A DNA stretch of 37,689 nucleotides from a virus. The stretch lies in IMG/VR virus record IMGVR_UViG_3300027719_000019, positions 1 to 37,689 of that record. The stretch is one strand, 5' to 3'. Shown here piece after piece: positions 1 to 37,689 of the stretch. Within the stretch, counting starts at the first letter, position 1. Every line of letters begins with the position of its first letter. The notes beneath the pieces are model-generated. The model was not told the DNA's origin, did not search any database, and worked only from the letters and a program-made list of their open reading frames with translations. The translations under genes and the position numbers were made by a program.

Positions 1-127
1 CAATAGCCTCAGCCTTGATGTACTCTGCGCAGTAGGGACATTTTTTGAGTTGCCCCTGGGCTACTTTTTGCTGCACTTCGGCAACTACCTGCTGCTCCAG
101 GTGGGCTTTATCCTCTTTTTTGATCAA
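1..127. repeat. Terminal direct repeat identical to 37563..37689, interpreted as a circular-assembly overlap
   Basis: The first 127 nt (caatagcctcagcc...ctcttttttgatcaa) recur base-for-base as the last 127 nt. The repeat sits inside one continuous minus-strand ORF, and the window begins and ends exactly at the repeat. Confidence 0.9.
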
Positions 128-519: not shown

Positions 520-1455
520 TCAATTACTTTCACAACCAACCCCGTCATGATTTCCATCGAAATTATGAGGGTCTGAACCTACGACCTGAAATCGGCGATA
601 GGGGATATCTTTGCAATCCAAGTCTGGTGGTGCCGGTGGTATGCAAACGGTTGGATAGGATGGATCGCAATTATTATTCGTGGCTGGTGCCTCCTTTGTG
701 GATATTGCCCTGGTAACCGGTGTTACTTCTTTTTGCAGTGCCCATAGGCCATACCCCATGGATGCCGCTCTTTGCTGACCATTCGCAAACAGATCCGCAC
801 AGGCTACGTCCGGGGGGTAGGTGGATGCATTGGCATACCCCAGGCGGACCAGTTCATAGTTGACCATTTTATTCCCCACAAGCACATAGCGGAGTAATCG
901 ACCGTATTGGTCCGTTTCAGACACGTCTTTGATCAGAATGACATCCTTATTCTCAACCAATGCGCGATTCTGGTCCGTTGCCTGCTCACCAAATTCTTCA
1001 TGCGTGGTGGTATCTTCCGGAGTGTCGATGCCGATATACCGGACGGTGAAATCCTGTCCACCGATATCAACGTGGATGGTATCCCCATCAACGATTCGAG
1101 TAACCTTTGCCGGTACGGACTGGGTATTGACAGGCAGGCATGGAAAAAGCTGATTGAGCGATGCTGTTTTAACTGCTGTTGGTACTGGCGGCGTTGGAGT
1201 ATCTGTTACTACAATTGGGGTTTGAGACAGGATTACCGCCAGTGTGCTGTGGTAGGTTGTCTCGTTGACGACCATTTTTATATCTGTCGGAGTTGTAATG
1301 CCACTCTGGGCAATTGGTAACTCAGTATTTGTGGGGGCCAAATCATCTGTATTTGAGGATAATAGGGCAGCTCCACCACCGCACATACATAACAATGCAA
1401 TGATGGCCAAACAACCTACTAAAATATTATTATTTTTTGACTTGGAATCAGACAT
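520..1455 (-). CDS. Membrane-anchored or secreted thermonuclease (SNase fold) with a C-terminal Excalibur Ca-binding domain
   Basis: The start is moved to ATG 1455 (AGGGGA upstream) because 1456..1509 lies in a repeated regulatory element. There is an N-terminal TM segment (ILVGCLAIIALLCMCGGGAALL). The SNase core reads VTRIVDGDTIHV...RYIGIDTPE...GRLLRYV...NYELVRLGYA. The C-terminus DCKDIPYRRFQVVGSDPHNFDGNHDGVGCE matches the Excalibur DxDxDGxxCE motif. Confidence 0.85.
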   Translation of the reverse strand: MSDSKSKNNNILVGCLAIIALLCMCGGGAALLSSNTDDLAPTNTELPIAQSGITTPTDIKMVVNETTYHSTLAVILSQTPIVVTDTPTPPVPTAVKTASLNQLFPCLPVNTQSVPAKVTRIVDGDTIHVDIGGQDFTVRYIGIDTPEDTTTHEEFGEQATDQNRALVENKDVILIKDVSETDQYGRLLRYVLVGNKMVNYELVRLGYANASTYPPDVACADLFANGQQRAASMGYGLWALQKEVTPVTRAISTKEAPATNNNCDPSYPTVCIPPAPPDLDCKDIPYRRFQVVGSDPHNFDGNHDGVGCESN

Positions 1456-1483
1456 AAAAAATCCCCTGAGTGCCGAAAAAATA

Positions 1484-1590
1484 GTAACACGTAACAGCAG
1501 TAACGGCATTTTGCATTAAATACCCATAGTACATAGTGTGGGGGTATTTAAAGGAATTATCTGTTACATCTGTTACCTGTTACAGAAATA
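1484..1590. promoter_or_regulatory. About 105-bp quasi-palindromic element, copy 1 (inverted copy at 13361..13475). It contains the upstream region of the nuclease gene.
   Basis: GTAACA x3 (1484-1506), stem TTAAATACCC (1516-1525) / GGGGGTATTTAA (1540-1551), then TGTTAC x3 (1561-1585). It aligns over its whole length with the reverse complement of 13361..13475. Confidence 0.65.
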
Positions 1591-2047: not shown

Positions 2048-2476
2048 TCAAGATGATTGTTCTCCTTCGTTTTCAGTCAACTGGATGCCGGACCTGGACA
2101 ATGCGGATTTAATGATTTCTCTCGCTTCGGGCGAATCTGTTTTTATTCCCCTCTGTGAAAGTTCTGCTGAATATTCTGCGCGAGCAGCCAATACCCTATC
2201 AACCAGTTCAACTGGCAATCCGGCATTTAATAATGTTACACGGGGGTCATCACCGTCTGGCCTGCGATAATTAAGAACGTCATAAACCTCTAGACCCAGC
2301 TTCTTGGATAACAATGCTGCCCCATCTAAACGTGGTTTGATTCCTGCGTTTAACCAACTTGACATTGTTGTGGGGGGAACATTCAAATAGAGAGAAAAAT
2401 CTTTTAATGTTTTTTCCTCATCCTGGGTGGAATTCCACTCCCTAAATTTATTTATAAGAAAATCTGAGAATTTCAT
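2048..2476 (-). CDS. XRE-family HTH protein, probable CI-like immunity repressor
   Basis: HTH segment LKDFSLYLNVPPTTMSSWLNAGIKP. It is divergent from the early operon. There is no SD, and a TATAAT box lies 6 nt upstream of the ATG, implying a leaderless mRNA as for lambda cI from PRM. Confidence 0.7.
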   Translation of the reverse strand: MKFSDFLINKFREWNSTQDEEKTLKDFSLYLNVPPTTMSSWLNAGIKPRLDGAALLSKKLGLEVYDVLNYRRPDGDDPRVTLLNAGLPVELVDRVLAARAEYSAELSQRGIKTDSPEAREIIKSALSRSGIQLTENEGEQSS

Positions 2477-7707: not shown

Positions 7708-7937
7708 GTGAACCTTCCACCGCCCGCCAGTTTGTGCATAAGCCGTGTCCTGGACGACTGGAACGGCTGTACAACCAGCTCATTGTCCCTGCAGGGGATA
7801 CCGGTATCCTCAAGGGACAGCTGGCCAAACTGGCGGGGGTGAAGGACGCAGACGGACTGCTGGCATCGTTGGAGTTTGCCGGATTTCTGGTGAGTGAAGA
7901 TGATGCCGGCAGGATTTATCCGTTTTCTGGAGGTTGA
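7704..7937 (+). CDS. Small protein, possibly winged-helix DNA-binding
   Basis: ATGA overlap with the upstream gene. The segment GILKGQLAKLAGVKDADGLLASLEFAGFLV resembles a wHTH. Confidence 0.45.
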   Translation: MSEPSTARQFVHKPCPGRLERLYNQLIVPAGDTGILKGQLAKLAGVKDADGLLASLEFAGFLVSEDDAGRIYPFSGG

Positions 7938-7938
7938 A

Positions 7939-8811
7939 ATGCAACAAACAACGCTGTTTACCGTAGGGAAGTTTCAGAAAAATCAATGCAGCGTGCGGGT
8001 CGAAAATAATGGTCTGATTGTCAAAACCCCGTTCCACCGGGTTATGGTCGATATGATCAAAACCCTGCCGAGTACAGAGCGGCGGTTTGATCCGAATGAA
8101 AAATCGTGGGTGGTCAACCCGCGGCATGAGAACCTGGTGCTGAGCTGGATTGACGCCTATTTTGGCGAACAACCCATCGTGGAACGCTGCGCGGCAGTGT
8201 CGGGAATGCCCCAGTCCAGCATGAATATTTTAGAGGTCCATTATCTGGCCACCGCGAAAGATAAGGGTGGGGATGAACGGATTGCACTGGGCATGGACGC
8301 GGGGAATACCTGGTCGTTTGTGTTCCCCGAATCGGTCCTGCGGGCGTGGTTCTGTGCGGACACCAACCCGACCGAGGCACTGACACTGTACGGCCTGCTG
8401 GGTATCCGTCAGGATGCAGCTCCGGACGCGATCAAGGCGGCATACCGGCGCATGGCGTTGACCTGGCACCCGGACCACTGCAAGGAAATCAACGCGGCGG
8501 ATGTGTTCCTGCGGGTGAAGGAAGCCTATTCCATACTGAGTGACGCGGGGAAACGGGGGCGATATGACGCCGGACTGGCACTGGAACGCAGTCTGAACCG
8601 CAACAAACAGCAGGATACCGGCATCAACGATATCAGCGGTTACCGCGCCCCGCTGCGCTGCGGGATGATTCTGGCAGAGGGTGCGGTCAATCTGGGTAGA
8701 TTTCACGTTACAAAAATTTTAGCCTGGGAAGACATTATTAATGGTTTTGGCCAGACACTGGTCAGCAGCTGGGTGTACGGGGATAAAACCCCGACAAAGA
8801 TTTGGGCGTAA
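7939..8811 (+). CDS. J-domain (DnaJ-like, HPD motif) protein with unrelated N- and C-terminal regions
   Basis: ATG 7939 follows GGAGG. The J domain reads LYGLLGIRQDAAPDAIKAAYRRMALTWHPDHC...VFLRVKEAYSILSDAGKRGRYD. Confidence 0.8.
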   Translation: MQQTTLFTVGKFQKNQCSVRVENNGLIVKTPFHRVMVDMIKTLPSTERRFDPNEKSWVVNPRHENLVLSWIDAYFGEQPIVERCAAVSGMPQSSMNILEVHYLATAKDKGGDERIALGMDAGNTWSFVFPESVLRAWFCADTNPTEALTLYGLLGIRQDAAPDAIKAAYRRMALTWHPDHCKEINAADVFLRVKEAYSILSDAGKRGRYDAGLALERSLNRNKQQDTGINDISGYRAPLRCGMILAEGAVNLGRFHVTKILAWEDIINGFGQTLVSSWVYGDKTPTKIWA

Positions 8812-17058: not shown

Positions 17059-18387
17059 ATGAGTGACTTAAAAAAAGCGTTCGATGCCATCACGGCCAAA
17101 CAGAAACCGCTGACCCAACTGATCAACTATTACCACGGCGAACAGCCGATGGTGTACACCAGCAAACGCCTGGTGGATGTATTCGGCAGTGCCATGGAAG
17201 ACTTCACCGAGAACTGGTGCGGGGTCGTGGTAGACAGCATCAAGGAGCGGATGACCCTCAAGGCGTTTGACGCTGGCGCTGCCCAGGCTACGCTGGATAA
17301 AATCATTGAGGCCAACCAGCTCTATCTGGAGGCTGCCGACCTGCACGAGATGGTACTGGCTGCCGGTCATGCCTATCTGCATGTCTGGGACGAAGGCAAC
17401 GGGGTAGAAATTTACTTTAATGACCCGAGACAGTGTGTTATATTCTACGACCCGCAACGCCCGCGGATACGGACCTACGCGGCCAAACTTTGGACGGATG
17501 AACGGGCACACATCACGCTGTATTACCCCGACCGGTTTGAATACTACATCAGCCGGGGAAAAGGAACGGATGTAACTGAAGCTGGAGCGTTTGAACTGGA
17601 TACCAGCATCAGCGAGACCGGAACGGCGGTCAATGAAACTGGCGGCATCCCGCTGTTTGAGTTCTGCGGCAACCGGCAGAAGAAATCTGATCTCTCCAAT
17701 GTGATCAAAATCCAGAACGGGATCAACAAACTGCTGGGGGATATGATGGTGGCGGCAGAGTACGGCGCGTTTCGACAGCGCTGGATTATCAGCAATTCGG
17801 ATATCACTAAATTGAGAAACGCACCCAACGAAATCTGGAATCTACCGGGTGGGGATGGGGTTGGCCAGCAGACGCAGGTGGGCGAGTTCAGCCCAACAGA
17901 CCTGGGCAACTACCTGAACGCCATCGACCGGCTGGCAGGAGATATCGCCAGGGTAACCCGATTGCCGAAGCACTATTTCTACAGCCAGGGCGGGGATCCG
18001 AGCGGTGAGGCGCTGATGGCCATGGAGGCCCCGTTGATCAAGCGAGTGAAATCCAGAATCGAACGGATTGAACCCACCTGGCAACAGGCAATGGCGTTTG
18101 CGCTGCAATGCGCAGGGATTACCGGTGAGGCCAAACCCATCTGGGACTCGGTTGAGAGCGTCCAGCCAGTGACACAGGCAGACATCCGGGTAAAGAATAA
18201 ATCTGCCGGCATTCCACTGCGCAGCACCTTACGCTGGGAAGGGCGGAGTGATCAGGAGATTGCCGACGTGGAAGCGGATATCGTTGCCGAACAAACCGCG
18301 GCGAACAGCAATCTGGCCAAGGCACTGCTGGAACAGCAACGGCAGTTTGACCAGGGGAATGTTGACCAGGGGAACGGGGTTGTATGA
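17059..18387 (+). CDS. Portal protein (SPP1 gp6-like)
   Basis: 442 aa, placed between terL and the MuF/gp7-like gene. The size and order are canonical. Confidence 0.8.
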   Translation: MSDLKKAFDAITAKQKPLTQLINYYHGEQPMVYTSKRLVDVFGSAMEDFTENWCGVVVDSIKERMTLKAFDAGAAQATLDKIIEANQLYLEAADLHEMVLAAGHAYLHVWDEGNGVEIYFNDPRQCVIFYDPQRPRIRTYAAKLWTDERAHITLYYPDRFEYYISRGKGTDVTEAGAFELDTSISETGTAVNETGGIPLFEFCGNRQKKSDLSNVIKIQNGINKLLGDMMVAAEYGAFRQRWIISNSDITKLRNAPNEIWNLPGGDGVGQQTQVGEFSPTDLGNYLNAIDRLAGDIARVTRLPKHYFYSQGGDPSGEALMAMEAPLIKRVKSRIERIEPTWQQAMAFALQCAGITGEAKPIWDSVESVQPVTQADIRVKNKSAGIPLRSTLRWEGRSDQEIADVEADIVAEQTAANSNLAKALLEQQRQFDQGNVDQGNGVV

Positions 18388-19397
18388 GCAGCGGCAGCAC
18401 CCCGCAGGTGATCGCCCGGCTCAACGAGTTCCGGAGTGAATTGAACGCCGGGGAAATCAGCCAGTTCGGTGAGATGACCCGGCGCTGGCGGGATGTGGAG
18501 CGCGGGATGACCGACAAGCTGCAGCTGCTGCTGGATGATATTGCCGCCCGGCAGGCACGCGGGGAGACTGTCAGCCAGTCCAAATTATTCCAGATGGAGC
18601 GTTACCAGGCACTGCTGGCACAGACCCATACTGAGTATAAAAGTTACAGCCGGTGGGCGGCGGAGATGATCGAGCGCAAACAGGGGGATTTGGCCGCGTT
18701 TGGCATCCGGTCGGCAACGGACCTGATTCGGGCGCAGTACATGGACGCGGGGATGGTCGGAGCGCGGTTTGATATCCTGCCGGTGGAAGCGATCAACGCA
18801 GGAATCGGGTTTGCGGCGGACGGCACTCCATTGAAAAAGTTATTGACTGACCGGTATCCGGATGCAGCAGCAGGGATGACCCGGCAAATTATCGACAGCC
18901 TGGCGCAGGGAATCAACCCGCGGGAGACCGCGCGGTATCTGAATGCGTTGGGGGCGGGGTTACAGCACAGCCTGGTGGTGGCACGAACCGAACAGATTCG
19001 GGCGTACCGGCAGGCAACCAGCGAGCAGTACAAAGCGAGCGGGGTGGTAAAAAGCTACCGGCGCAATGCAGCAAAACAAGAAAGAACCTGCCTGGCGTGC
19101 CTGGCATTGGATGGGAAAATACAGGCGACCGAGGATCTGTTTGAAAACCATCCGTGCTGCAGGTGCTTTATCACGCCGGTGATTGATGGTCTACCACCGG
19201 TGGAGGTGGAGAGCGGGGCGGCGTGGTTTGCCCGGCAGGATGACGCTACACAAAAATCGATGATGGGGGAGGAACGATTTGCGGCATGGAAGGACGGCCA
19301 GTTTGGGTTCGGAGACCTGGCAAAGGTGCATGAGCATGAAGTATGGGGTCCAACGGTGGGGATTACACCTTTGAGCGAGCTGGTGGCAGGTAAATAA
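18384..19397 (+). CDS. Head morphogenesis protein (Mu F / SPP1 gp7 family)
   Basis: The C-terminal signature is ..ERTCLACLALDGK...FENHPCCRCFITPV. It overlaps the portal stop. Confidence 0.8.
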   Translation: MSSGSTPQVIARLNEFRSELNAGEISQFGEMTRRWRDVERGMTDKLQLLLDDIAARQARGETVSQSKLFQMERYQALLAQTHTEYKSYSRWAAEMIERKQGDLAAFGIRSATDLIRAQYMDAGMVGARFDILPVEAINAGIGFAADGTPLKKLLTDRYPDAAAGMTRQIIDSLAQGINPRETARYLNALGAGLQHSLVVARTEQIRAYRQATSEQYKASGVVKSYRRNAAKQERTCLACLALDGKIQATEDLFENHPCCRCFITPVIDGLPPVEVESGAAWFARQDDATQKSMMGEERFAAWKDGQFGFGDLAKVHEHEVWGPTVGITPLSELVAGK

Positions 19398-19403
19398 AAA
19401 AAT

Positions 19404-19421
19404 CCCCCGGAAAACCGGGGG
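19404..19421. terminator. Bidirectional intrinsic terminator between convergent genes
   Basis: CCCCCGG aaaa CCGGGGG, flanked by an A-run on the left and a T-rich tract on the right. Confidence 0.75.
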
Positions 19422-19443
19422 TGATTGTTATTATTTGTCTTTT

Positions 19444-19881
19444 TTATTTGATAACGCCTGTCCACTTTGCCGCGCCGTTGCGGATCAGATAGGAAACCAG
19501 TTCGCTCCATGAACCATTACCTTTGACAAACGCCGTTACCTCGTGCCATTTCCGGGCTGCATCCTGTACCATGATCTGAAACCCCCAGCGGCCATCGGGG
19601 AGCTGGCAGATGTTAAAATATTTGTTGTCTTTAGTGCGCCAAGTTTGGTACGCGCCGGTTTTGCACAACGTATCCCGGATTGCCTCGGCGTCTGTGCCGT
19701 GTCTAATCACAGCGTGTTCGTGCTGGATGACTCCGGGGAGCGCAGCAAACACTGCATTGAGTTCGCTTTGCATGGATATATCCCACGCGGCGGTTTGTGC
19801 GATTGGCAAAATTAACACCGCCACAGCCAGCAAAATCAATCCAACGAATGAAACTTTGATGGTCGCGATGGTGTTTGGCAT
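19444..19881 (-). CDS. Secreted or anchored protein of unknown function (145 aa)
   Basis: AGGAGG SD. The signal-like N-terminus IKVSFVGLILLAVAVLILPIAQTAA is followed by a 2-Cys globular domain. It lies on the strand opposite the surrounding late genes. Confidence 0.65.
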   Translation of the reverse strand: MPNTIATIKVSFVGLILLAVAVLILPIAQTAAWDISMQSELNAVFAALPGVIQHEHAVIRHGTDAEAIRDTLCKTGAYQTWRTKDNKYFNICQLPDGRWGFQIMVQDAARKWHEVTAFVKGNGSWSELVSYLIRNGAAKWTGVIK

Positions 19882-20088
19882 TTATTCCTCCTGTGCTAAA
19901 CTTTTGATCACAAAAATAAAATCTTCCATGGTCATCTGGTCGGTCGAACCGGCCACGGCCCGGAGCATATCGATGGTTTGTTCGTCCTTTGTACCGCAAA
20001 CCGCCTGTGTGTTTGCAGCATCCCGTGTCTCGTCAGTCACATGACCGACAAGAATCAAGTCCAAAAAAGCCTGCCATAAAATTTCCAT
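19882..20088 (-). CDS. Hypothetical acidic protein (68 aa)
   Basis: AGGAGTAACA SD. Its stop abuts the start of the next gene. Confidence 0.6.
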   Translation of the reverse strand: MEILWQAFLDLILVGHVTDETRDAANTQAVCGTKDEQTIDMLRAVAGSTDQMTMEDFIFVIKSLAQEE

Positions 20089-20133
20089 TGTTACTCCTAT
20101 TCGCGTATATCCCCAGGTGCGGGGAAGGTTGCT

Positions 20134-20354
20134 TTATTTCTTCGGTCTCCCTGCTTTGCTCCGCTGCACCCCTACCAGGTCCGCTCGTTTGATAAGCAGC
20201 AGTCGCTTACCAACTCTCTTTGCGGGTAATTTTCCGGTCAGGACCATTCGCCGTACTCCTGAGTCTGTTATACCCAACAGCGCGGCTACCTCAGCGGTTG
20301 TTAAAAATCCATGCCGTCCGTCCGTGCTTTATCTTCTTCGTCAAGCTGTTTCAT
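20134..20354 (-). CDS. MerR/excisionase-type HTH (HTH_17-like) protein, interrupted by a frame change at a T5 run
   Basis: AGGAGG lies 5 nt before ATG 20354 and gives MKQLDEEDKARTDGMDF*, with the stop at 20303-20301. The -1 frame continues LTTAEVAALLGITDSGVRRMVLTGKLPAKRVGKRLLLIKRADLVGVQRSKAGRPKK* and has no start codon of its own. Confidence 0.6.
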
Positions 20355-20383
20355 TCATTCCTCCTTATTTGTTTGATGTATCT

Positions 20384-20412
20384 ATAATATCACGTTAGCG
20401 TGATATATACAA
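20384..20412 (-). promoter_or_regulatory. Sigma70-like promoter of the minus-strand cassette, with a 20-bp palindromic operator in the spacer
   Basis: On the minus strand: TTGTAT, 17 nt, TATTAT. The spacer is ATATCACGCTAACGTGATAT, which is the complement of 20387..20406 (8-bp perfect arms). Confidence 0.6.
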
Positions 20413-20473
20413 TCCCCCAATATATAAAGCGGCGAAAATATTATTTAATGTTCTATTGTTCTATTTTTGGGAT

Positions 20474-20502
20474 AAAAAAAAGGGCAGCCTGGGGAGCTGC
20501 CC
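20474..20502 (-). terminator. Strong minus-strand intrinsic terminator with no obvious upstream gene
   Basis: GGGCAGC (20482-88) / GCTGCCC (20496-502). On the minus strand the hairpin is followed by T8 (A8 at 20474-81). Confidence 0.65.
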
Positions 20503-20635
20503 GACCGACAAAGGAGATCTCAGGACAGAGACGCTGCTGAAACAAGAGACGAGATCAGTATAGCACGGGGGGCAAGGGAGGCTCAAGGGAATGAGATTAG
20601 GATCATAATTGGACACATCCCTTACAGCCCATGTT

Positions 20636-20679
20636 ATACTGAGTATATAACTGAATAGGGAATTTGGAGTTTACCGCCC
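20636..20679 (+). promoter_or_regulatory. Late promoter B (TATATAAC region overlapping an ATACTGAGTAT motif) plus the conserved leader box GGGAATTTGGAGTTTACCGCCC
   Basis: The box at 20658-20679 matches 15017-15038. A -10-like TATATA/TATAAC lies at 20644-20651. Confidence 0.55.
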
Positions 20680-20716
20680 AAGATGCACAGATGTGTGTCG
20701 GGCGGTTTTTGTTTTT
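20674..20716 (+). terminator. Promoter-proximal intrinsic terminator in the late leader (copy B)
   Basis: CCGCCC (20674-79) / GGGCGG (20700-05) with an extended inner stem, followed by TTTTTGTTTTT. Confidence 0.7.
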
Positions 20717-20737
20717 AACTTACTGTTTGGAGGGCGT

Positions 20738-21118
20738 ATGAGTTGGTTATCGTTAGACGTTATCAAAACTGTTATTGGTCCGCAGATTGCCGCATTGATC
20801 GGTTTGATCGCTCTGCAGGTGCTGCTGGCCTGTGCGCTGGCGGTCCGCCAGAAGAAATTTGCCTGGAGAAAACTGGCAGATTTTTACCGTGTCATGGTCC
20901 TGCCGATGCTGATCGGCTGGCTGGGATTTGTTGTCCTTGCCCGGCTGGCGAGTGAGGCCATTCTGGGACCGGAGTACGGCATGTTGGCAGGGAATATGGT
21001 GAGCTGGTTAGCCTGGCTGGCAGTGGTCGCGAGTTTAGGCGGGCGGATTGTTGATACAGCCAAGGAATTATACGGCAGCCGGTTACCGTTCACTGCGGGC
21101 AGTGGAGATCCGAAATAA
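20738..21118 (+). CDS. Three-TM membrane protein, holin-like
   Basis: ATG 20738 follows GGAGGG. The three hydrophobic helices are IAALIGLIALQVLLACALAV, VMVLPMLIGWLGFVVLARLA and MVSWLAWLAVVASLGG, followed by a charged tail. Confidence 0.45.
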   Translation: MSWLSLDVIKTVIGPQIAALIGLIALQVLLACALAVRQKKFAWRKLADFYRVMVLPMLIGWLGFVVLARLASEAILGPEYGMLAGNMVSWLAWLAVVASLGGRIVDTAKELYGSRLPFTAGSGDPK

Positions 21119-21525
21119 TGAGCGCACTGCCACCAGCCAGTATCTGGCTGCAATTCACCATTATCGCAATCATCGTGCTGGTCATTTCCCTGCTTGGGAT
21201 TGGTTTGTACAAAGGCTGGAAGGAATTCACCGACTGGCTGACCAAACAAAATTCGCTGAGGGAAAAAGAACGCCAGACCCAGCGCGATTGGGAAAGCGCA
21301 GAGCAAACCAAGCGCGAACTGGCACAGGATAAACGGGACGAGGTCTGGAGAGCCTATTTCACAAAAATGCAGACTGCCCAGGATGAACAACGGGCCGAGG
21401 ACCGCAAAATTCTCGGTGAACTGGTCACCACGATGAAGGAACACGACAACTGGGCACGGAAAACATTGGGACGGTTTGAGGTCGTAGAGGGTGAGACGCC
21501 CATCACGATTAAGCGACGGAAGTAG
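21118..21525 (+). CDS. N-terminally anchored coiled-coil protein
   Basis: TAATG overlap. One TM helix (IWLQFTIIAIIVLVISLLGIGL) is followed by a charged helical region. Confidence 0.55.
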   Translation: MSALPPASIWLQFTIIAIIVLVISLLGIGLYKGWKEFTDWLTKQNSLREKERQTQRDWESAEQTKRELAQDKRDEVWRAYFTKMQTAQDEQRAEDRKILGELVTTMKEHDNWARKTLGRFEVVEGETPITIKRRK

Positions 21526-35241: not shown

Positions 35242-35511
35242 ATGGCAACTCAACAGCAAAAATCGGATCATGTAACCCGGGTACGGCAGGAAACAACCAA
35301 CCTGGCCAATGCGATCGGGAGACTACGAATCCTTAAGATGAAATATGATGCTCAGGGTTTAGAAATCGACCTACAGGATATCGATATCATCGGTGAAAAT
35401 TTTGGAATCAGCGCACAGGATATCAAGGATGCCTATGTTGCAATTGCATTGATTGAAAAAGCGCTTTCCTCCGGAGGCGAGGAGGCCCTGTTGAAGGTTG
35501 TGATGTCATGA
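35242..35511 (+). CDS. Hypothetical soluble protein (89 aa) between the fiber and the endolysin
   Basis: AGAGG SD. It has no TM segment, so it is not a holin. Confidence 0.5.
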   Translation: MATQQQKSDHVTRVRQETTNLANAIGRLRILKMKYDAQGLEIDLQDIDIIGENFGISAQDIKDAYVAIALIEKALSSGGEEALLKVVMS

Positions 35512-36401
35512 GAGCAAAACTGATTGATATCTCAACTCACCAGGACGATTCAGATACACCGGCCAAATTTGATTTTAGCAAACCGCGTTCATACGATGTG
35601 AATGGAATCATCATCCGCACCGGTCACGGGATGGTCAAGGACGCGGACTATGAATATTATTACCGGGATGCAAAGGCAGCCGGTTATTACCTGGGCACGT
35701 ATCACTTCGATGACTATGATGTGAATCTGGAAAAACAGGTGTTCACGATGCTGGCGGCGATGGAAGGCAAAGCGTTTGACCTACCTCCGGCGTGGGACAT
35801 CGAGGATAGCAGCCAGCCGTTCCACGCTACCCAGACGTTCGCCTTATCCCGTGCCAAGGGCTTTTTCGCCATCGTTGAGCCGGTTGTCCGCAAAATCTGT
35901 GTCTACTATATGGGCGCTTCGATGATCCGCTGGTTGAAGCCGGTGCCCGGTTTTCTCCGGATGCGGCGCGGGTGGCCTGCATGGTATCCGAAGCGACCGG
36001 CTGGCAATCCGTTTGGCTGGATGGAAACCCATAAGGGACCGGATACGGGCGGGGTGCCGTGGTGGTTGTGGCAGGGCTCAGCTAAGGGGAACGGATTCGG
36101 GGCAGCGATGGGCGCGGACGGGAGCGCGGATATCGACTGTGACGTGAGTTCATTGCCCTATACTGAGTTTTACGAGGACGCTGCTCAGACGATTGTGTAT
36201 CCGGATTACCGACCGGCGAGAATCAAAACCAGTGGATCGTTCGTCCGGGTGCGGAAAACGCCACAGTTTGGTGATAACATCTGTTACTCATTGTTAAACA
36301 ATACCCGGGTCAATGTGTTCGGGGAGAGTAACGGATTCTATAAAGTTGATTTCCTGGCATCCGAGTGGGTGCACGGGTCGGTACTCAGTATAGGATTATG
36401 A
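35508..36401 (+). CDS. Endolysin: GH25 muramidase plus a C-terminal SH3b-like wall-binding domain
   Basis: The N-terminus KLIDISTHQDD...NGIIIRTGHG...DYEYYYRDAKAAGYYLGTYHF fits GH25. The C-terminus ARIKTSGSFVRVRKTPQFG...NGFYKV is SH3-like. Confidence 0.75.
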   Translation: MRAKLIDISTHQDDSDTPAKFDFSKPRSYDVNGIIIRTGHGMVKDADYEYYYRDAKAAGYYLGTYHFDDYDVNLEKQVFTMLAAMEGKAFDLPPAWDIEDSSQPFHATQTFALSRAKGFFAIVEPVVRKICVYYMGASMIRWLKPVPGFLRMRRGWPAWYPKRPAGNPFGWMETHKGPDTGGVPWWLWQGSAKGNGFGAAMGADGSADIDCDVSSLPYTEFYEDAAQTIVYPDYRPARIKTSGSFVRVRKTPQFGDNICYSLLNNTRVNVFGESNGFYKVDFLASEWVHGSVLSIGL

Positions 36402-36409
36402 TCATAATT

Positions 36410-37276
36410 TTATAGATGCCAGTTGTCCGCTGGTGATGAGCGCCGGTGCGCAGATTCAAGGTCTGATTGAGAAATCGCCAGGTATCTGCGCACCATCGTT
36501 AAATCGTTATGTCCCAGCAGCATTTGCAGTTCAAAAATGTTGCCGCCGTTGCGTAAAAACTCTATGGCAAACGTGTGGCGGAATCGGTGCGGGTGGATGT
36601 TTGTTATGCCAGCCCGTTTCCCGATGCGGCGCAGAATGTTGCGGAGTTGATACCGATCTAAGATTGTATTGTCGCGAGTGGAGATCAATGGATCTGTTGG
36701 GGTTACATCCCGGGTATGGATGTATTTCCAGAGTGCCAGGCGGGCGGATTTTCCTAAACGGGCAACCCGGCCACGGGATTTTTTTCCGGAGTGAAACGGT
36801 TTTACCAGGATAGATCCTGTTTCAATATCTAAATCATTGATCGTCAGACGGGATACTTCTGACACCCGCAGCCCTGAATCCAGCAGCAACAAGACAAGAG
36901 CCTTATCGCGTGCAGATTTGCACGATTTGACAATTTTACTGATTTCAGCCTGGGCGAACGGCAAAATTGCCTGATTTGGGGTTGCAGGCATTGGAATGTT
37001 ATCCACCCGTTCTATACTGAGTTCCTTACTGGCCCAGTTGAAAAATGATCGGATAACCTTCCAGTAGACCTGAACAGTGGATTCAGTTCGACCGTTATCC
37101 CTGAGCGATTGGAGGTAGCCGATCAGCTGTTCGCGGGTGATTTGTTCGAGGGGTGGATTGTCCAGCTGCACGGCAATATTTTGCAGACGCTGGGCATAAT
37201 ATTTTGCTGTTATGGGAGAATAGGCTCCGTTTGCCATTTCCATGGAAAAACCATCAATAGCATCTAAGAATTTCAT
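36410..37276 (-). CDS. int: Tyrosine recombinase / integrase (XerC/D-like, 288 aa)
   Basis: AAGGAG SD. There is a SAM-like N-domain. Catalytic motifs are LDSGLRVSE (R), HPHRFRHTFA (HxxR) and LLGHNDLTMVRRY (H..Y). Confidence 0.9.
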   Translation of the reverse strand: MKFLDAIDGFSMEMANGAYSPITAKYYAQRLQNIAVQLDNPPLEQITREQLIGYLQSLRDNGRTESTVQVYWKVIRSFFNWASKELSIERVDNIPMPATPNQAILPFAQAEISKIVKSCKSARDKALVLLLLDSGLRVSEVSRLTINDLDIETGSILVKPFHSGKKSRGRVARLGKSARLALWKYIHTRDVTPTDPLISTRDNTILDRYQLRNILRRIGKRAGITNIHPHRFRHTFAIEFLRNGGNIFELQMLLGHNDLTMVRRYLAISQSDLESAHRRSSPADNWHL

Positions 37277-37328
37277 AGGAATGTGCTCCTTTTTTGGAAT
37301 AAAAGAGCCAAAACAATCACATTCCTAT
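37275..37328 (-). promoter_or_regulatory. 11-bp perfect inverted repeat bracketing the int SD and start codon
   Basis: ATAGGAATGTG (37275-85, which includes the start codon complement) and CACATTCCTAT (37318-28). Confidence 0.5.
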
Positions 37329-37522
37329 TAAAAACTAAGAGTATTGTATTCTTTGTGGGCGGAACAGGACTCGAACCTGCGACCCCATCCTTGTAAGGGA
37401 TGTGCTCTAACCAGCTGAGCTACCCGCAGATAACGATCACATTACTCATAAAATATTGTAGGTATGTGCTTGTTTTGGTGGTTATCTTAAATAATCAAAT
37501 TTACGTGTATTGTGATTGTTTT
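37310..37522. other. attP region: AAAACAATCACA(T/A)T repeats flanking the tRNA-like core
   Basis: AAAACAATCACATT lies at 37310-37323 and its inverted copy (13/14 matches) at 37509-37522. A third ATCACATT lies at 37436-37443. Confidence 0.5.
37356..37429 (-). tRNA. tRNA-Val(UAC)-like sequence with an unpaired acceptor end, probably the attP core copied from a host tRNA-Val gene
   Basis: My cloverleaf on the minus strand has D arm GCTC/GAGC, anticodon arm CATCC-CTTACAA-GGATG, variable loop GGGTC and T arm GCAGG-TTCGAGT-CCTGT. The acceptor 3' strand TCCGCCC-A faces a 5' strand CTGCGGG, so pairs 1:72 and 2:71 are C:C and T:C mismatches. No CCA is encoded. Confidence 0.6.
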
Positions 37523-37689
37523 CACTCCTTCTTTACCAAATCCCGACCGCAGTGTTTGCAAACAATAGCCTCAGCCTTGATGTACTCTGCGCAGTAGGGA
37601 CATTTTTTGAGTTGCCCCTGGGCTACTTTTTGCTGCACTTCGGCAACTACCTGCTGCTCCAGGTGGGCTTTATCCTCTTTTTTGATCAA
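37522..37689 (-). CDS. C-terminal part of the wrap-around membrane / zinc-ribbon gene (same gene as 1..295)
   Basis: The frame runs continuously through the 127-bp overlap. The stop TGA is the complement of 37522-37524. Confidence 0.7.
   Translation of the reverse strand: MIKKEDKAHLEQQVVAEVQQKVAQGQLKKCPYCAEYIKAEAIVCKHCGRDLVKKE
37563..37689. repeat. Second copy of the 127-bp terminal overlap
   Basis: Identical to 1..127 when read by eye. Confidence 0.9.

What the first reader, a model, noticed from the sequence alone, without database searches (positions are those of the whole stretch)
19404..20503. Autonomous three-gene minus-strand cassette inserted between the MuF gene and the rest of the head genes
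The cassette has its own sigma70-like promoter (TTGTAT, 17 nt, TATTAT) with a perfect 8+8 palindromic operator, ATATCACG-N4-CGTGATAT, in the spacer (20387-20406). It encodes a MerR/Xis-type HTH gene, a 68-aa acidic protein and a 145-aa secreted 2-Cys protein.

It is insulated by a bidirectional terminator on one side (19404-21) and a strong terminator on the other (20474-502). It runs antisense to the whole morphogenesis region and looks lower in GC by eye.

This architecture is that of a lysogeny-expressed moron. Neither effector matches any family I recognise. The cassette could be a superinfection-exclusion, defence or host-modifying module.
Basis: partly seen in the sequence, partly recalled or inferred. 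Interest (0 to 1): 0.65.

Follow-up and report, generated by a model that had tools for sequence, protein, structure and literature searches.

The report
Phage accessory operon with membrane-protein pair
A temperate phage carries, backwards inside its head genes, a small self-contained operon whose two effector genes are a conserved but uncharacterised pair, a cytoplasmic acidic protein plus a membrane-anchored surface domain. Its regulator gene is broken by a frameshift, so it is a plausible but unproven host-protecting "moron", not a new kind of system.

Summary
The cassette is real. Three minus-strand reading frames lie between MuF and the rest of the head genes of a complete, circularly assembled temperate siphovirus that has an integrase, a tRNA-Val and a CI-like repressor. 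The bidirectional terminator, the promoter-like hexamers and the perfect 8+8 palindrome are at the stated coordinates.

1. The HTH gene is not intact. A 17-codon leader ends at U_UUU_UAA and the HTH domain continues in the -1 frame. All four assemblies whose DNA was compared are identical here, and no intact allele is on record.
2. The right-hand terminator lies upstream of the promoter, so it does not end the cassette.
3. The promoter matches only 8 of 12 positions, 8+8 palindromes are not rare, and the GC drop is modest.
4. Only the 68-aa and 145-aa genes form a conserved unit. The 145-aa family has 558 clusters and no Pfam, PDB, PHROG or PADLOC match. It has a conserved His-x4-His, two Cys, Glu and Thr signature and a predicted N-in/C-out membrane anchor. 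All 11 relatives' loci that retain upstream sequence carry a small, usually acidic, upstream partner, and two proteins are natural fusions.
5. In relatives the pair sits among phage early or replication genes, without an HTH.

The most likely role is an envelope-acting accessory module such as superinfection exclusion. Function and lysogenic expression are untested.

The parts
19404..19421 (.). Bidirectional intrinsic terminator shared by the MuF gene (+) and the cassette (-)
   Evidence: The stem has 7 G-C pairs and a U-rich tract follows on both strands. Folding energy is -16.0 kcal/mol (-) and -15.1 kcal/mol (+), z -2.4 and -1.9.
19444..19881 (-). 145-aa bitopic membrane protein with an N-terminal anchor and a roughly 95-aa conserved C-terminal domain (His56, His61, Cys73, Cys92, Glu114, Thr116)
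   Evidence: ORF. The family has 558 clusters at E<=1e-3. The AF2 model has pLDDT above 90 for residues 50-145. There is no Pfam or PDB match.
19882..20088 (-). 68-aa acidic (pI 4.1) cytoplasmic partner. Its stop codon abuts the ATG of the 145-aa gene, and the Shine-Dalgarno sequence AGGAGG for that gene lies inside its 3' end
   Evidence: An equivalent small upstream ORF is present in all 11 relatives' loci that retain upstream sequence. An HMM of 12 partner sequences ranks it first of 521 sequences, E 0.09. Natural fusions are P0139 and P0153.
20110..20125 (-). Short G+C-rich hairpin in the 45-nt gap between the HTH frame and the 68-aa gene. It has no U-tract on the minus strand
   Evidence: The scanner flagged it only as a plus-strand terminator-like site. 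Its role is unknown.
20134..20307 (-). Reading frame of the HTH_17 / excisionase-family DNA-binding domain. It has no usable start codon of its own before helix 1
   Evidence: It shares 42% identity with the region of mycobacteriophage DLane that holds gp45, annotated there as a hypothetical protein and in a duplicate record as an HTH DNA-binding protein.
20301..20354 (-). 17-codon leader ORF (MKQLDEEDKARTDGMDF*) with a GGAGG Shine-Dalgarno sequence at 20360-20364. It ends at the T5 run
   Evidence: Gene callers called no gene here in four assemblies.
20303..20307 (-). T5 run within U_UUU_UAA. It is either a frameshift lesion (T6 to T5) or a shifty-stop -1 slippage site joining the leader to the HTH domain
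   Evidence: The region is 100% identical in L001-L003, and L004 ends about 80 nt short of this site. No intact 73-aa or 59-aa product is on record. A hairpin of -20.2 kcal/mol (z -2.8) starts 14 nt downstream.
20384..20412 (-). Sigma-70-like promoter TTGTAT-17-TATTAT. The perfect palindrome ATATCACG-N4-CGTGATAT (20387-20406) covers the spacer and part of the -10 element
   Evidence: Sequence. The match is 8 of 12, below the scanner threshold. The palindrome is unique in the window, but its class is not rare.
20474..20502 (-). Minus-strand intrinsic terminator (8-bp stem plus U8) lying upstream of the cassette promoter
   Evidence: -15.6 kcal/mol, z -3.3.

Best explanation
The region is an accessory, moron-type transcription unit captured in the head-gene region of a temperate siphovirus. 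Its payload is a conserved two-gene module.

The 145-aa product is a bitopic membrane protein with its N terminus inside and its C terminus outside. A short tether holds a compact alpha2-beta4 domain at the outer face of the cytoplasmic membrane. That domain carries a near-invariant His-x4-His pair, two Cys, and Glu and Thr. The 68-aa acidic product is its cytoplasmic partner and is translated by coupling from the same mRNA.

Transcription would start at the TTGTAT-17-TATTAT promoter and end at the bidirectional terminator shared with MuF. The palindrome over the promoter would be the private operator of the upstream HTH_17 protein. That gene is frameshifted. So either only a trickle of repressor is made by -1 slippage at U_UUU_UAA, or none is made and the operon is constitutive.

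The module most likely acts on the producer cell's own envelope. Superinfection exclusion or surface modification is the leading guess.

Shown: gene anatomy, family conservation, pairing, fusions, the frameshift and the terminators. Inferred: promoter activity, operator-HTH pairing, membrane topology, expression in lysogens and the biological role.
For: The phage is temperate and its genome is complete. It has an integrase, a tRNA-Val, a CI-like HTH gene and a 127-nt terminal overlap.

The 145-aa ORF is a real, widespread family. The profile search found 558 clusters at E<=1e-3 and 254 at E<=1e-10. Over 156 sequences, conservation is H56 99%, G100 99%, H61 96%, C92 93%, T116 92% and a Cys at or near position 71 in 86%.

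Topology:
- 142 of 150 motif-bearing members have a TM-like segment before the domain.
- The N-side is more positively charged than the C-side.
- The median tether is 10 residues.
- 139 of 150 have an even number of Cys in the domain.
- Fusion members P0139 and P0153 carry a G/XXXXEF motif, which I recognise from memory as TadE-type. In prepilin-type proteins such a motif puts the leader inside and the domain outside.

Partner:
- A small ORF, acidic in 11 of 12, lies from 37 nt of overlap to 11 nt of gap upstream in all 11 relatives' loci with upstream sequence.
- A leave-out HMM finds the window's 68-aa protein first of 521 sequences at E 0.09, which is about 2e-4 per sequence.
- Two natural fusions have the order partner-TM-domain.

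A short tether argues for action at the producer's own membrane, not for a diffusible product. Neither effector is a known virion protein. Morons with small membrane proteins that exclude phages are established, for example HK97 gp15 (PMC3594210).
Against: - No expression data exist. The promoter matches only 8 of 12 positions, and an 8+8 palindrome is not statistically unusual.
- In relatives the pair lies co-directionally among early or replication genes, with no HTH or obvious private signals. A lytic-cycle role is therefore equally natural.
- Insertion relative to sister phages could not be shown because no relatives were found.
- There is no homology to any known exclusion or defence protein.
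- The conserved His/His/Glu/Thr set and weak fold resemblance to RelE/BrnT-type RNases fit an enzyme or toxin better than a passive blocker.
- How a soluble cytoplasmic partner would work with an external domain is unexplained.
- The 68-aa model is poor (pLDDT 53).
Confidence: 0.45

Rival explanations
1. The pair belongs to the phage's own lytic programme. It would be an early or middle membrane function such as modifying the envelope for replication, blocking secondary infection during the lytic cycle, or timing release. In this reading the cassette is not specifically lysogeny-expressed.
For: In every relative with flanking sequence the pair is co-directional with neighbours that I read as phage early genes. 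These are an SSB in L012, a VRR-NUC-like gene in L009, PolX-like and SprT-like genes in L014, a replication-organiser-like gene in L016, and long arrays of small same-strand genes in L018 and the 11-kb P0010 contig. None of these loci has an HTH or an obvious private promoter.
Against: In this window the pair has been turned antisense to the late operon. It has a terminator and a promoter-like site with an operator of its own. That uncouples it from both early and late rightward transcription, which is the usual signature of prophage-expressed accessory genes.
Confidence: 0.25
2. The pair is a toxin-inhibitor system. The basic 145-aa domain (pI 9.3) would be a small RNase-like enzyme of the barnase/EndoU/colicin/RelE fold class that is exported or tethered. 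The acidic 68-aa protein (pI 4.1) would be its cytoplasmic inhibitor, as barstar is for secreted barnase, or an antitoxin in an abortive-infection or addiction module.
For: - The gene order, a small acidic protein followed by a basic protein with translational coupling, resembles antitoxin-toxin pairs.
- The predicted topology, two helices followed by a four-stranded sheet, matches my recollection of the fold class.
- The best PDB matches are BrnT (3u97, probability 0.91, TM 0.57 on the target), HigB2 and two CdiA-CT toxins.
- The near-invariant His, His, Glu and Thr resemble acid-base RNase active sites.
- The fusions could be read as an inhibitory pro-domain.
Against: - No fold match is significant (best E 0.23).
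- There is no Pfam, PADLOC or PDB-sequence match.
- The predicted N-in/C-out topology and short tether put the domain outside the cell and fixed to the producer, where it has no obvious RNA substrate and no delivery route.
- In the fusions the partner and the domain lie on opposite sides of the membrane.
Confidence: 0.15
3. The cassette is a decaying remnant. The HTH gene is a pseudogene and the unit is no longer regulated, or no longer functional, in this phage lineage.
For: The frameshift separates the start codon from helix 1 of the HTH. It is present in every assembly whose DNA covers the site. No intact product exists among about 15 billion recorded proteins. Gene callers called nothing there.
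Against: The 68-aa and 145-aa ORFs are intact, retain their Shine-Dalgarno sequences and coupling, and the 145-aa protein keeps almost every signature residue of the family. Loss of an autorepressor would raise expression of the effectors, not silence them.
Confidence: 0.1
4. The HTH_17 gene is the phage's excisionase or recombination directionality factor, and the two downstream genes merely ride on its transcript.
For: The repaired protein passes the NCBIfam excisionase-family domain cut-off (TIGR01764, 42.6 bits against a cut-off of 28.8). It also hits several PHROG excisionase families. No Xis-like ORF was apparent by eye in the translated ORFs next to the integrase.
Against: It lies about 16 kb from the integrase and is frameshifted. 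It sits behind a private palindromic operator typical of an autoregulated transcription factor. HTH_17 proteins are commonly plain regulators, and the best phage matches are annotated as HTH DNA-binding proteins that sit beside a separate excisionase gene.
Confidence: 0.05

Closest known systems
Phage morons, e.g. the HK97 gene 15 moron (Juhala 2000; Cumby 2012, as reviewed in PMC3594210)
   Same: Both are small autonomous units inside a late-gene region of a temperate phage. Each has its own promoter-like and terminator elements and a lower GC than its neighbours. Each encodes a small membrane protein with no virion role.
   Different: Insertion relative to sister phages and expression from the prophage were not shown here. 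This unit has two effector genes plus a broken regulator. There is no sequence similarity to gp15/YebO.
Membrane or lipoprotein superinfection-exclusion proteins of phages of Gram-positive bacteria (Sie2009 of lactococcal P335 phages, Ltp of S. thermophilus TP-J34)
   Same: These are small proteins anchored in the membrane by an N-terminal segment, with a compact domain exposed on the cell surface, encoded by temperate siphoviruses. The comparison rests on my knowledge and on the abstract of PMC3952083.
   Different: There is no detectable homology. Those genes lie in the lysogeny module and act alone. This one lies in the head region, has a cytoplasmic partner and carries an enzyme-like conserved residue set.
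Barnase-barstar and RelE/BrnT-type toxin-antitoxin pairs (BECR fold class)
   Same: Both pair a small basic alpha+beta domain, two helices then a four-stranded sheet, with a small acidic partner encoded next to it. BrnT, HigB2 and CdiA-CT toxins are the best but non-significant structural neighbours.
   Different: No fold match is significant and there is no sequence relationship. The domain is predicted to be tethered outside the membrane. The conserved residues, two His in the N-terminal helices and two Cys, were not compared with the catalytic residues of those families.
TadE/TadF-type pseudopilins and Flp pilins
   Same: Two family members (P0139, P0153) have a G/XXXXEF motif ahead of the hydrophobic segment. 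One of them lies about 1.8 kb from an Flp-like pilin gene in L018. The overall shape is a hydrophobic N-terminal helix followed by a small sheet-containing globular domain.
   Different: The window protein and at least 150 of 156 relatives lack the motif. There is no Pfam TadE match.
HTH_17 / excisionase-family regulators (e.g. mycobacteriophage DLane gp45, P2 Cox, AlpA)
   Different: The reading frame is interrupted between the start codon and helix 1.

Membership tests
Phage moron (Juhala et al. 2000 definition, as restated in PMC3594210) | Extra DNA compared with otherwise collinear related phages | not testable with these tools
   No related phage was found. A DNA search of GenBank phages gave only a 247-nt capsid-gene match. 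MuF tblastn matches are all below 30% identity. IMG/VR and metagenome scans were empty.
Phage moron | Own promoter | tested here: inconclusive
   TTGTAT-17-TATTAT is present, correctly placed about 23 nt upstream of a GGAGG-ATG start. It matches only 8 of 12 positions and is below the scanner threshold.
Phage moron | Own terminator | tested here: met
   The hairpin at 19404-19421 is followed by U7 on the minus strand, -16 kcal/mol.
Phage moron | GC content differs from surrounding genes | tested here: inconclusive
   The cassette is 0.485 against 0.59 for MuF and 0.536 for the window. Gene GC of 0.47-0.53 is within 0.3-1.7 sd of the other genes and similar to the other minus-strand genes.
Phage moron | Expressed from the repressed prophage | not testable with these tools
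   No transcript data are available.
HTH_17 / excisionase-family DNA-binding protein (PF12728, TIGR01764) | Domain match above the curated cut-off | tested here: met
   43.8 bits against a cut-off of 27 and 42.6 bits against 28.8. Both scores apply only to the sequence repaired by adding one T.
HTH_17 / excisionase-family DNA-binding protein | Intact reading frame from a start codon through helix 1 | tested here: not met
   The leader stops at 20303-20301. The first ATG, GTG or TTG in the HTH frame lies after helix 1.
Type II toxin-antitoxin / BECR-fold RNase toxins (RelE, BrnT, HigB, barnase) | Significant sequence or structural similarity to a known toxin family | tested here: not met
   The best Foldseek E-value is 0.23. 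There are no Pfam, PADLOC or PDB-sequence hits.
Type II toxin-antitoxin / BECR-fold RNase toxins | Toxin acts in the producer's cytoplasm | tested here: not met
   Prediction only. An N-terminal anchor is present in 142 of 150 members. The positive-inside rule, even Cys counts and prepilin-type fusions all point to an external domain.
Type II toxin-antitoxin | Small acidic partner encoded immediately upstream and translationally coupled | tested here: met
   The stop codon abuts the ATG. The pI values are 4.1 and 9.0. The arrangement recurs in all 11 relatives' loci with upstream sequence.
Known superinfection-exclusion / defence proteins (PHROGs, PADLOC) | Homology to a described exclusion or defence protein | tested here: not met
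   There are no PHROG or PADLOC hits for either effector. Only the HTH weakly resembles MADS MAD1, which is a generic HTH match.
Known superinfection-exclusion / defence proteins | Protection of the lysogen against phage infection | not testable with these tools
   This needs an experiment.
TadE-like pseudopilin / class III signal peptide proteins | G/XXXXE[FY] processing motif ahead of the hydrophobic helix | tested here: not met
   The motif is absent from the window protein and was found only in P0139 and P0153 among 156 members.

The most novel reading that the evidence does not exclude
The 68-aa and 145-aa pair is the founding example of a widespread, undescribed two-component phage envelope system of at least 558 protein clusters. 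GTDB hits suggest many members are linked to Chloroflexota. In this reading a membrane-tethered His/His/Cys/Cys/Glu/Thr exo-domain, either an enzyme or a metal site, works with a cytoplasmic acidic subunit to exclude superinfecting phages or remodel the cell surface. In this phage its expression would be set by a shifty-stop -1 ribosomal frameshift (U_UUU_UAA) that limits synthesis of its own HTH repressor.
Probability: 0.15. Interest if true: 0.7.

Novelty: new member of a known kind. Interest (0 to 1): 0.4.

Why it matters
If the pair proves to be an exclusion or defence module, it would give a function to a large unannotated family found in environmental phages, several of them linked to Chloroflexota, for which almost no phage-host biology is known. 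The natural fusions and the very small conserved residue set make the family easy to test by mutagenesis. The split HTH gene is a compact candidate for shifty-stop -1 frameshifting. If it is simply a lesion, it illustrates how loss of an autorepressor could lock an accessory operon on. As it stands, this is one more phage accessory cassette of unknown function.

Tried and rejected
- Virion or assembly role for the effectors: rejected. Neither has a meaningful PHROG or Pfam match (the 68-aa protein has only two sub-threshold hits), and homologues lie next to replication-type genes, not structural ones.
- Sequencing error as the cause of the HTH frameshift: unlikely. Three assemblies that cover the site are 100% identical over 1370 nt, and a fourth (L004, 1044 nt) ends about 80 nt short of it.
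- Search for an intact (T6) allele: none found by pattern scans of metagenome and viral contigs or by exact-protein look-up.
- The main phage repressor using the cassette operator: no second copy of the palindrome in the genome, even with 3 mismatches.
- Flanking direct or inverted repeats that would mark a mobile element: none convincing.
- Sister phages lacking the cassette: none found.
- Homologues of the 68-aa protein by sequence search: none. Its single-sequence AF2 model is too poor to search with (pLDDT 53).
The A1 profile found no relatives in viral contigs.
- Rfam: nothing in the intergenic region above noise.
- A conserved "YP" motif in the cytoplasmic tail as a docking site for the partner: found in only 11 of 156 members, so dropped.
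- An HTH gene upstream of the pair in L008 and L018: not found.
Full report
**Setting**

The window is a complete phage genome assembled as a circle. Its first and last 127 nt are identical.

It is a temperate siphovirus:
- a tyrosine integrase at 36410-37276(-), next to a tRNA-Val at 37355-37429(-);
- a CI-like HTH gene at 2048-2476(-), identified by reading its translation;
- replication genes on the plus strand;
- a plus-strand late region: small and large terminase, SPP1-type portal, MuF (18384-19397), a probable scaffold (assigned by position and composition only), major capsid protein, tail genes, and a GH25+SH3 endolysin.

No close relative exists in GenBank phages, IMG/VR or the metagenome contig set. 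The DNA search gave only a 247-nt capsid match to an Acutalibacter phage. MuF matches are all below 30% identity.

**Checking the observation**

The left hairpin (19404-19421, seven G-C pairs) is followed by a U-rich tract on both strands. It is a credible bidirectional terminator for the convergent MuF gene and the cassette.

The right hairpin (20482-20502 plus U8) is a terminator only on the minus strand, and it lies upstream of the cassette promoter. It therefore shields the cassette from leftward transcription arriving from the right. It does not end the cassette.

The promoter TTGTAT-17-TATTAT is well placed, with a GGAGG and an ATG about 25-35 nt downstream. It matches only 8 of 12 consensus positions, so the scanner did not list it.

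The palindrome ATATCACG-N4-CGTGATAT is perfect and has no second copy in the genome, even at 3 mismatches. Perfect 8+8 palindromes are not unusual, however. Three were observed and about 5.5 are expected in Markov-shuffled sequence. Its significance rests on position, not statistics.

The GC drop is real but modest. The cassette is 0.485, the genome 0.536 and MuF 0.59. The coding parts (0.47-0.53) lie 0.3-1.7 sd below the other genes and resemble the other minus-strand genes.

**The HTH gene is broken**

The ATG at 20354, preceded by GGAGG, opens only a 17-codon frame, MKQLDEEDKARTDGMDF, which stops at 20303-20301. The HTH domain (FLTTAEVAALLGITDSGVRRMV...) continues in the -1 frame from the T5 run at 20303-20307.

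In that frame the first ATG, GTG or TTG lies after helix 1. No functional HTH can be made by ordinary initiation.

Adding one T gives a 73-aa protein that matches:
- Pfam HTH_17 at 3e-11;
- the NCBIfam excisionase-family domain;
- the mycobacteriophage DLane gp45 region at 42% identity across the HTH.

Four independently assembled contigs were compared, two from Logan and two from JGI. Three are 100% identical over 1370 nt that include the run. The fourth is identical over the 1044 nt it shares but ends about 80 nt short of the run. Gene callers called nothing there. No intact product is recorded among about 15 billion proteins, and pattern scans found no T6 allele.

Two readings remain:
- A fixed one-base deletion, which I consider more likely.
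- A shifty-stop -1 P-site slip at U_UUU_UAA. tRNA-Phe can re-pair perfectly one base back, and the stop codon in the A site would then be read as UUA.

A stable hairpin (-20.2 kcal/mol, z -2.8) follows the site, but it starts 14 nt downstream, further than I recall as typical for frameshift stimulators. I treat it as a hint only.

**The effectors are a conserved pair**

*The 145-aa family.* The word-indexed search found only five relatives of the 145-aa protein. A profile search of 1.84 billion cluster representatives found 558 clusters at E<=1e-3 and 254 at E<=1e-10. None of 53 sampled members matches a relevant Pfam family, and the profile matches no PDB sequence. There is no hit in 50,697 GenBank phages.

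Over 156 sequences the signature, in window numbering, is:

| Residue | Conservation |
|---|---|
| H56 | 99% |
| G100 | 99% |
| H61 | 96% |
| C92 | 93% |
| T116 | 92% |
| G123 | 92% |
| F118 | 88% |
| A65 | 87% |
| A57 | 86% |
| Cys at position 71 (displaced to 73 in the window protein) | 86% |
| E114 | 79% |

AlphaFold models residues 50-145 at pLDDT above 90. The order of elements is two helices, a four-stranded sheet, a helix and a short strand. Foldseek finds no significant neighbour:
- The best PDB matches are BrnT (E 0.23, TM 0.57 on the target), HigB2 and two CdiA-CT toxins.
- The best viral match is an unnamed 71-aa protein (E 0.015).

*Topology.* Of 150 motif-bearing members, 142 have a hydrophobic segment before the domain. 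The N-side carries more positive charge than the C-side. The tether from the anchor to the first His has a median of 10 residues, and a quarter of members have 3 or fewer. An even number of Cys in the domain occurs in 139 of 150. I infer a protein with its N terminus inside and its C terminus outside, holding the domain at the outer membrane face. The two Cys could form a disulfide, or they could form a metal site with the two His.

*The partner.* In all 11 relatives' loci that retain upstream sequence, a small ORF of 76-105 aa precedes the gene. It is acidic (pI 4.0-5.2) in all but L012 (pI 6.8). The spacing ranges from a 37-nt overlap to an 11-nt gap. One contig carries two tandem pairs.

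These partners share a weak C-terminal motif, roughly D-x-[VIL]-[RK]-x-[VIL]-[AG]-x-x-N followed after a short variable stretch by an acidic patch and then hydrophobic residues. A direct search with the 68-aa protein finds nothing. An HMM built from the 12 other partner sequences ranks it first among 521 sequences at E 0.09, about 2e-4 for the single protein tested. The next independent decoy scores 1.6.

Two family members, P0139 and P0153, are natural fusions in the order acidic domain, hydrophobic segment, conserved domain. Their hydrophobic segment begins with a G/XXXXEF motif, which I recognise from memory as TadE-type. The P0139 locus also encodes an Flp-like pilin.

The fusions tie the two proteins together functionally. 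They also agree with a cytoplasmic partner and an external domain.

**Context in relatives**

Three of the five GTDB genome hits are Chloroflexota MAGs. Wherever flanks exist, the pair is co-directional with its neighbours. From reading the translations, those neighbours look like phage early genes:
- an SSB (L012);
- a VRR-NUC-like protein (L009);
- PolX-like and SprT-like proteins (L014);
- a replication-organiser-like protein (L016);
- long arrays of small same-strand genes (L018 and the 11-kb P0010 contig).

None of these loci shows an HTH gene next to the pair. Their gene calls show none, and six-frame translation of the upstream gaps in L008 and L018 found none. The three-gene cassette is therefore specific to this phage. 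The conserved unit is the two-gene module, here rewired behind an HTH and operator and turned antisense to the late genes.

**How it most likely works**

*Shown:* an operon-like arrangement of leader/HTH, a 45-nt gap with a hairpin, the 68-aa gene and the abutting 145-aa gene, ending at a strong terminator.

*Inferred:*
- Transcription starts at the TTGTAT/TATTAT promoter.
- The private palindrome is the operator of the HTH protein.
- With the HTH frameshifted, repression is weak or absent.
- The 145-aa protein inserts with its domain outside and acts on the producer's own envelope, together with the cytoplasmic 68-aa partner.

The short tether argues against a diffusible toxin. The enzyme-like conserved residues argue against a purely passive plug. 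My leading guess is superinfection exclusion or surface modification, by analogy with membrane-protein morons such as HK97 gp15.

I put about 0.7 on [quoted passage not shown] and about 0.3 on "exclusion or defence" specifically.

*Rivals:*
- a lytic-cycle membrane function (0.25), favoured by the relatives' context;
- a barnase/barstar-like or toxin-antitoxin pair (0.15), favoured by the charge pairing, gene order and weak fold hits, but disfavoured by topology and lack of significant similarity;
- a decaying remnant (0.1);
- the HTH acting as the phage's excisionase (0.05).

**Comparison and novelty**

By architecture this is a moron-type accessory unit, which is a known kind. Two defining features of a moron could not be tested: extra DNA relative to sister phages, and prophage expression. 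The protein family is undescribed and large, but unannotated accessory families are common in phages. I rate it a new member of a known kind, with moderate interest (0.4).

The frameshifted regulator, the partner fusions and the tight residue signature are the most useful handles for experiments.

**Limits**

- No expression or phenotype data are available.
- The 68-aa model is unreliable (pLDDT 53).
- The host is unknown.
- The neighbour-gene names in relatives come from reading translations, not from profile searches.

Noticed in passing
window 1-127 and 37563-37689: The first and last 127 nt are identical. The window is a circular assembly of a genome of about 37.56 kb, and another assembly of the same phage is 37,559 nt long.
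   Followed up: yes
window 20555-20642: An 88-nt imperfect palindrome (25-nt arms, 80% complementary) lies in the intergenic region to the right of the cassette. It folds at -33 kcal/mol (+, z -4.0) or -36.3 kcal/mol (-, z -5.8). Each arm holds a TATACT -10-like hexamer. On the minus strand it precedes the 20502-20474 terminator, so a small minus-strand RNA or a divergent control region is possible. It has no Rfam match.
   Followed up: partly
window 20693-21525 (+): Two membrane proteins sit between the cassette and the probable scaffold gene. One is 141 aa with three predicted TM segments (126 aa by the gene callers). The other is 135 aa with one TM segment and a charged coiled region, and it gives a weak PHROG spanin-like hit. 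No TM protein lies next to the endolysin at 35508-36401, so these may be the holin-like lysis genes, displaced into the head region.
   Followed up: partly
window 19404-19421 and 20503-20692: The terminator after MuF would also stop rightward late transcription, and no good sigma-70 promoter precedes the next plus-strand genes. The late operon may need antitermination or a phage-specific activator to cross this region.
   Followed up: no
window 520-1509 (-): A 329-aa protein with an N-terminal hydrophobic segment and a staphylococcal-nuclease domain (Pfam SNase 4.7e-18; PADLOC candidate 'SNc+LTD' 3.9e-24) is encoded on the minus strand near the CI-like gene. It is a second candidate prophage-expressed envelope or secreted factor.
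   Followed up: partly
window 36410-37429 (-): A full-length tRNA-Val(TAC) lies 79 nt from the start of the integrase gene. It is probably the attachment-site region.
   Followed up: partly
window 7894-8811 (+): A phage-encoded DnaJ-domain protein lies in the early region (Pfam DnaJ 3.2e-18).
   Followed up: no
L018 896-1042 and 2833-3468: A metagenomic element encodes an Flp-like pilin (KGQGLVEYALIL...). About 1.8 kb downstream it encodes a 211-aa member of the family in which the acidic partner is fused ahead of a TadE-like G/XXXXEF anchor. This hints that at least this branch is processed like a pseudopilin.
   Followed up: partly
L015 351-1941: Two tandem copies of the partner+domain pair lie on a 2.1-kb contig binned as a Nanoarchaeota MAG, which may be a binning error. 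The second copy looks frameshifted.
   Followed up: no
window, 10 sites (e.g. 20555, 20633, 36157, 36385, 37011): The arm motif TCAGTATARC occurs 10 times at up to 1 mismatch, against 1.85 expected (0 of 100 shuffles reached 10). Three of the sites lie around the integrase and endolysin junction. Its meaning is unknown.
   Followed up: no
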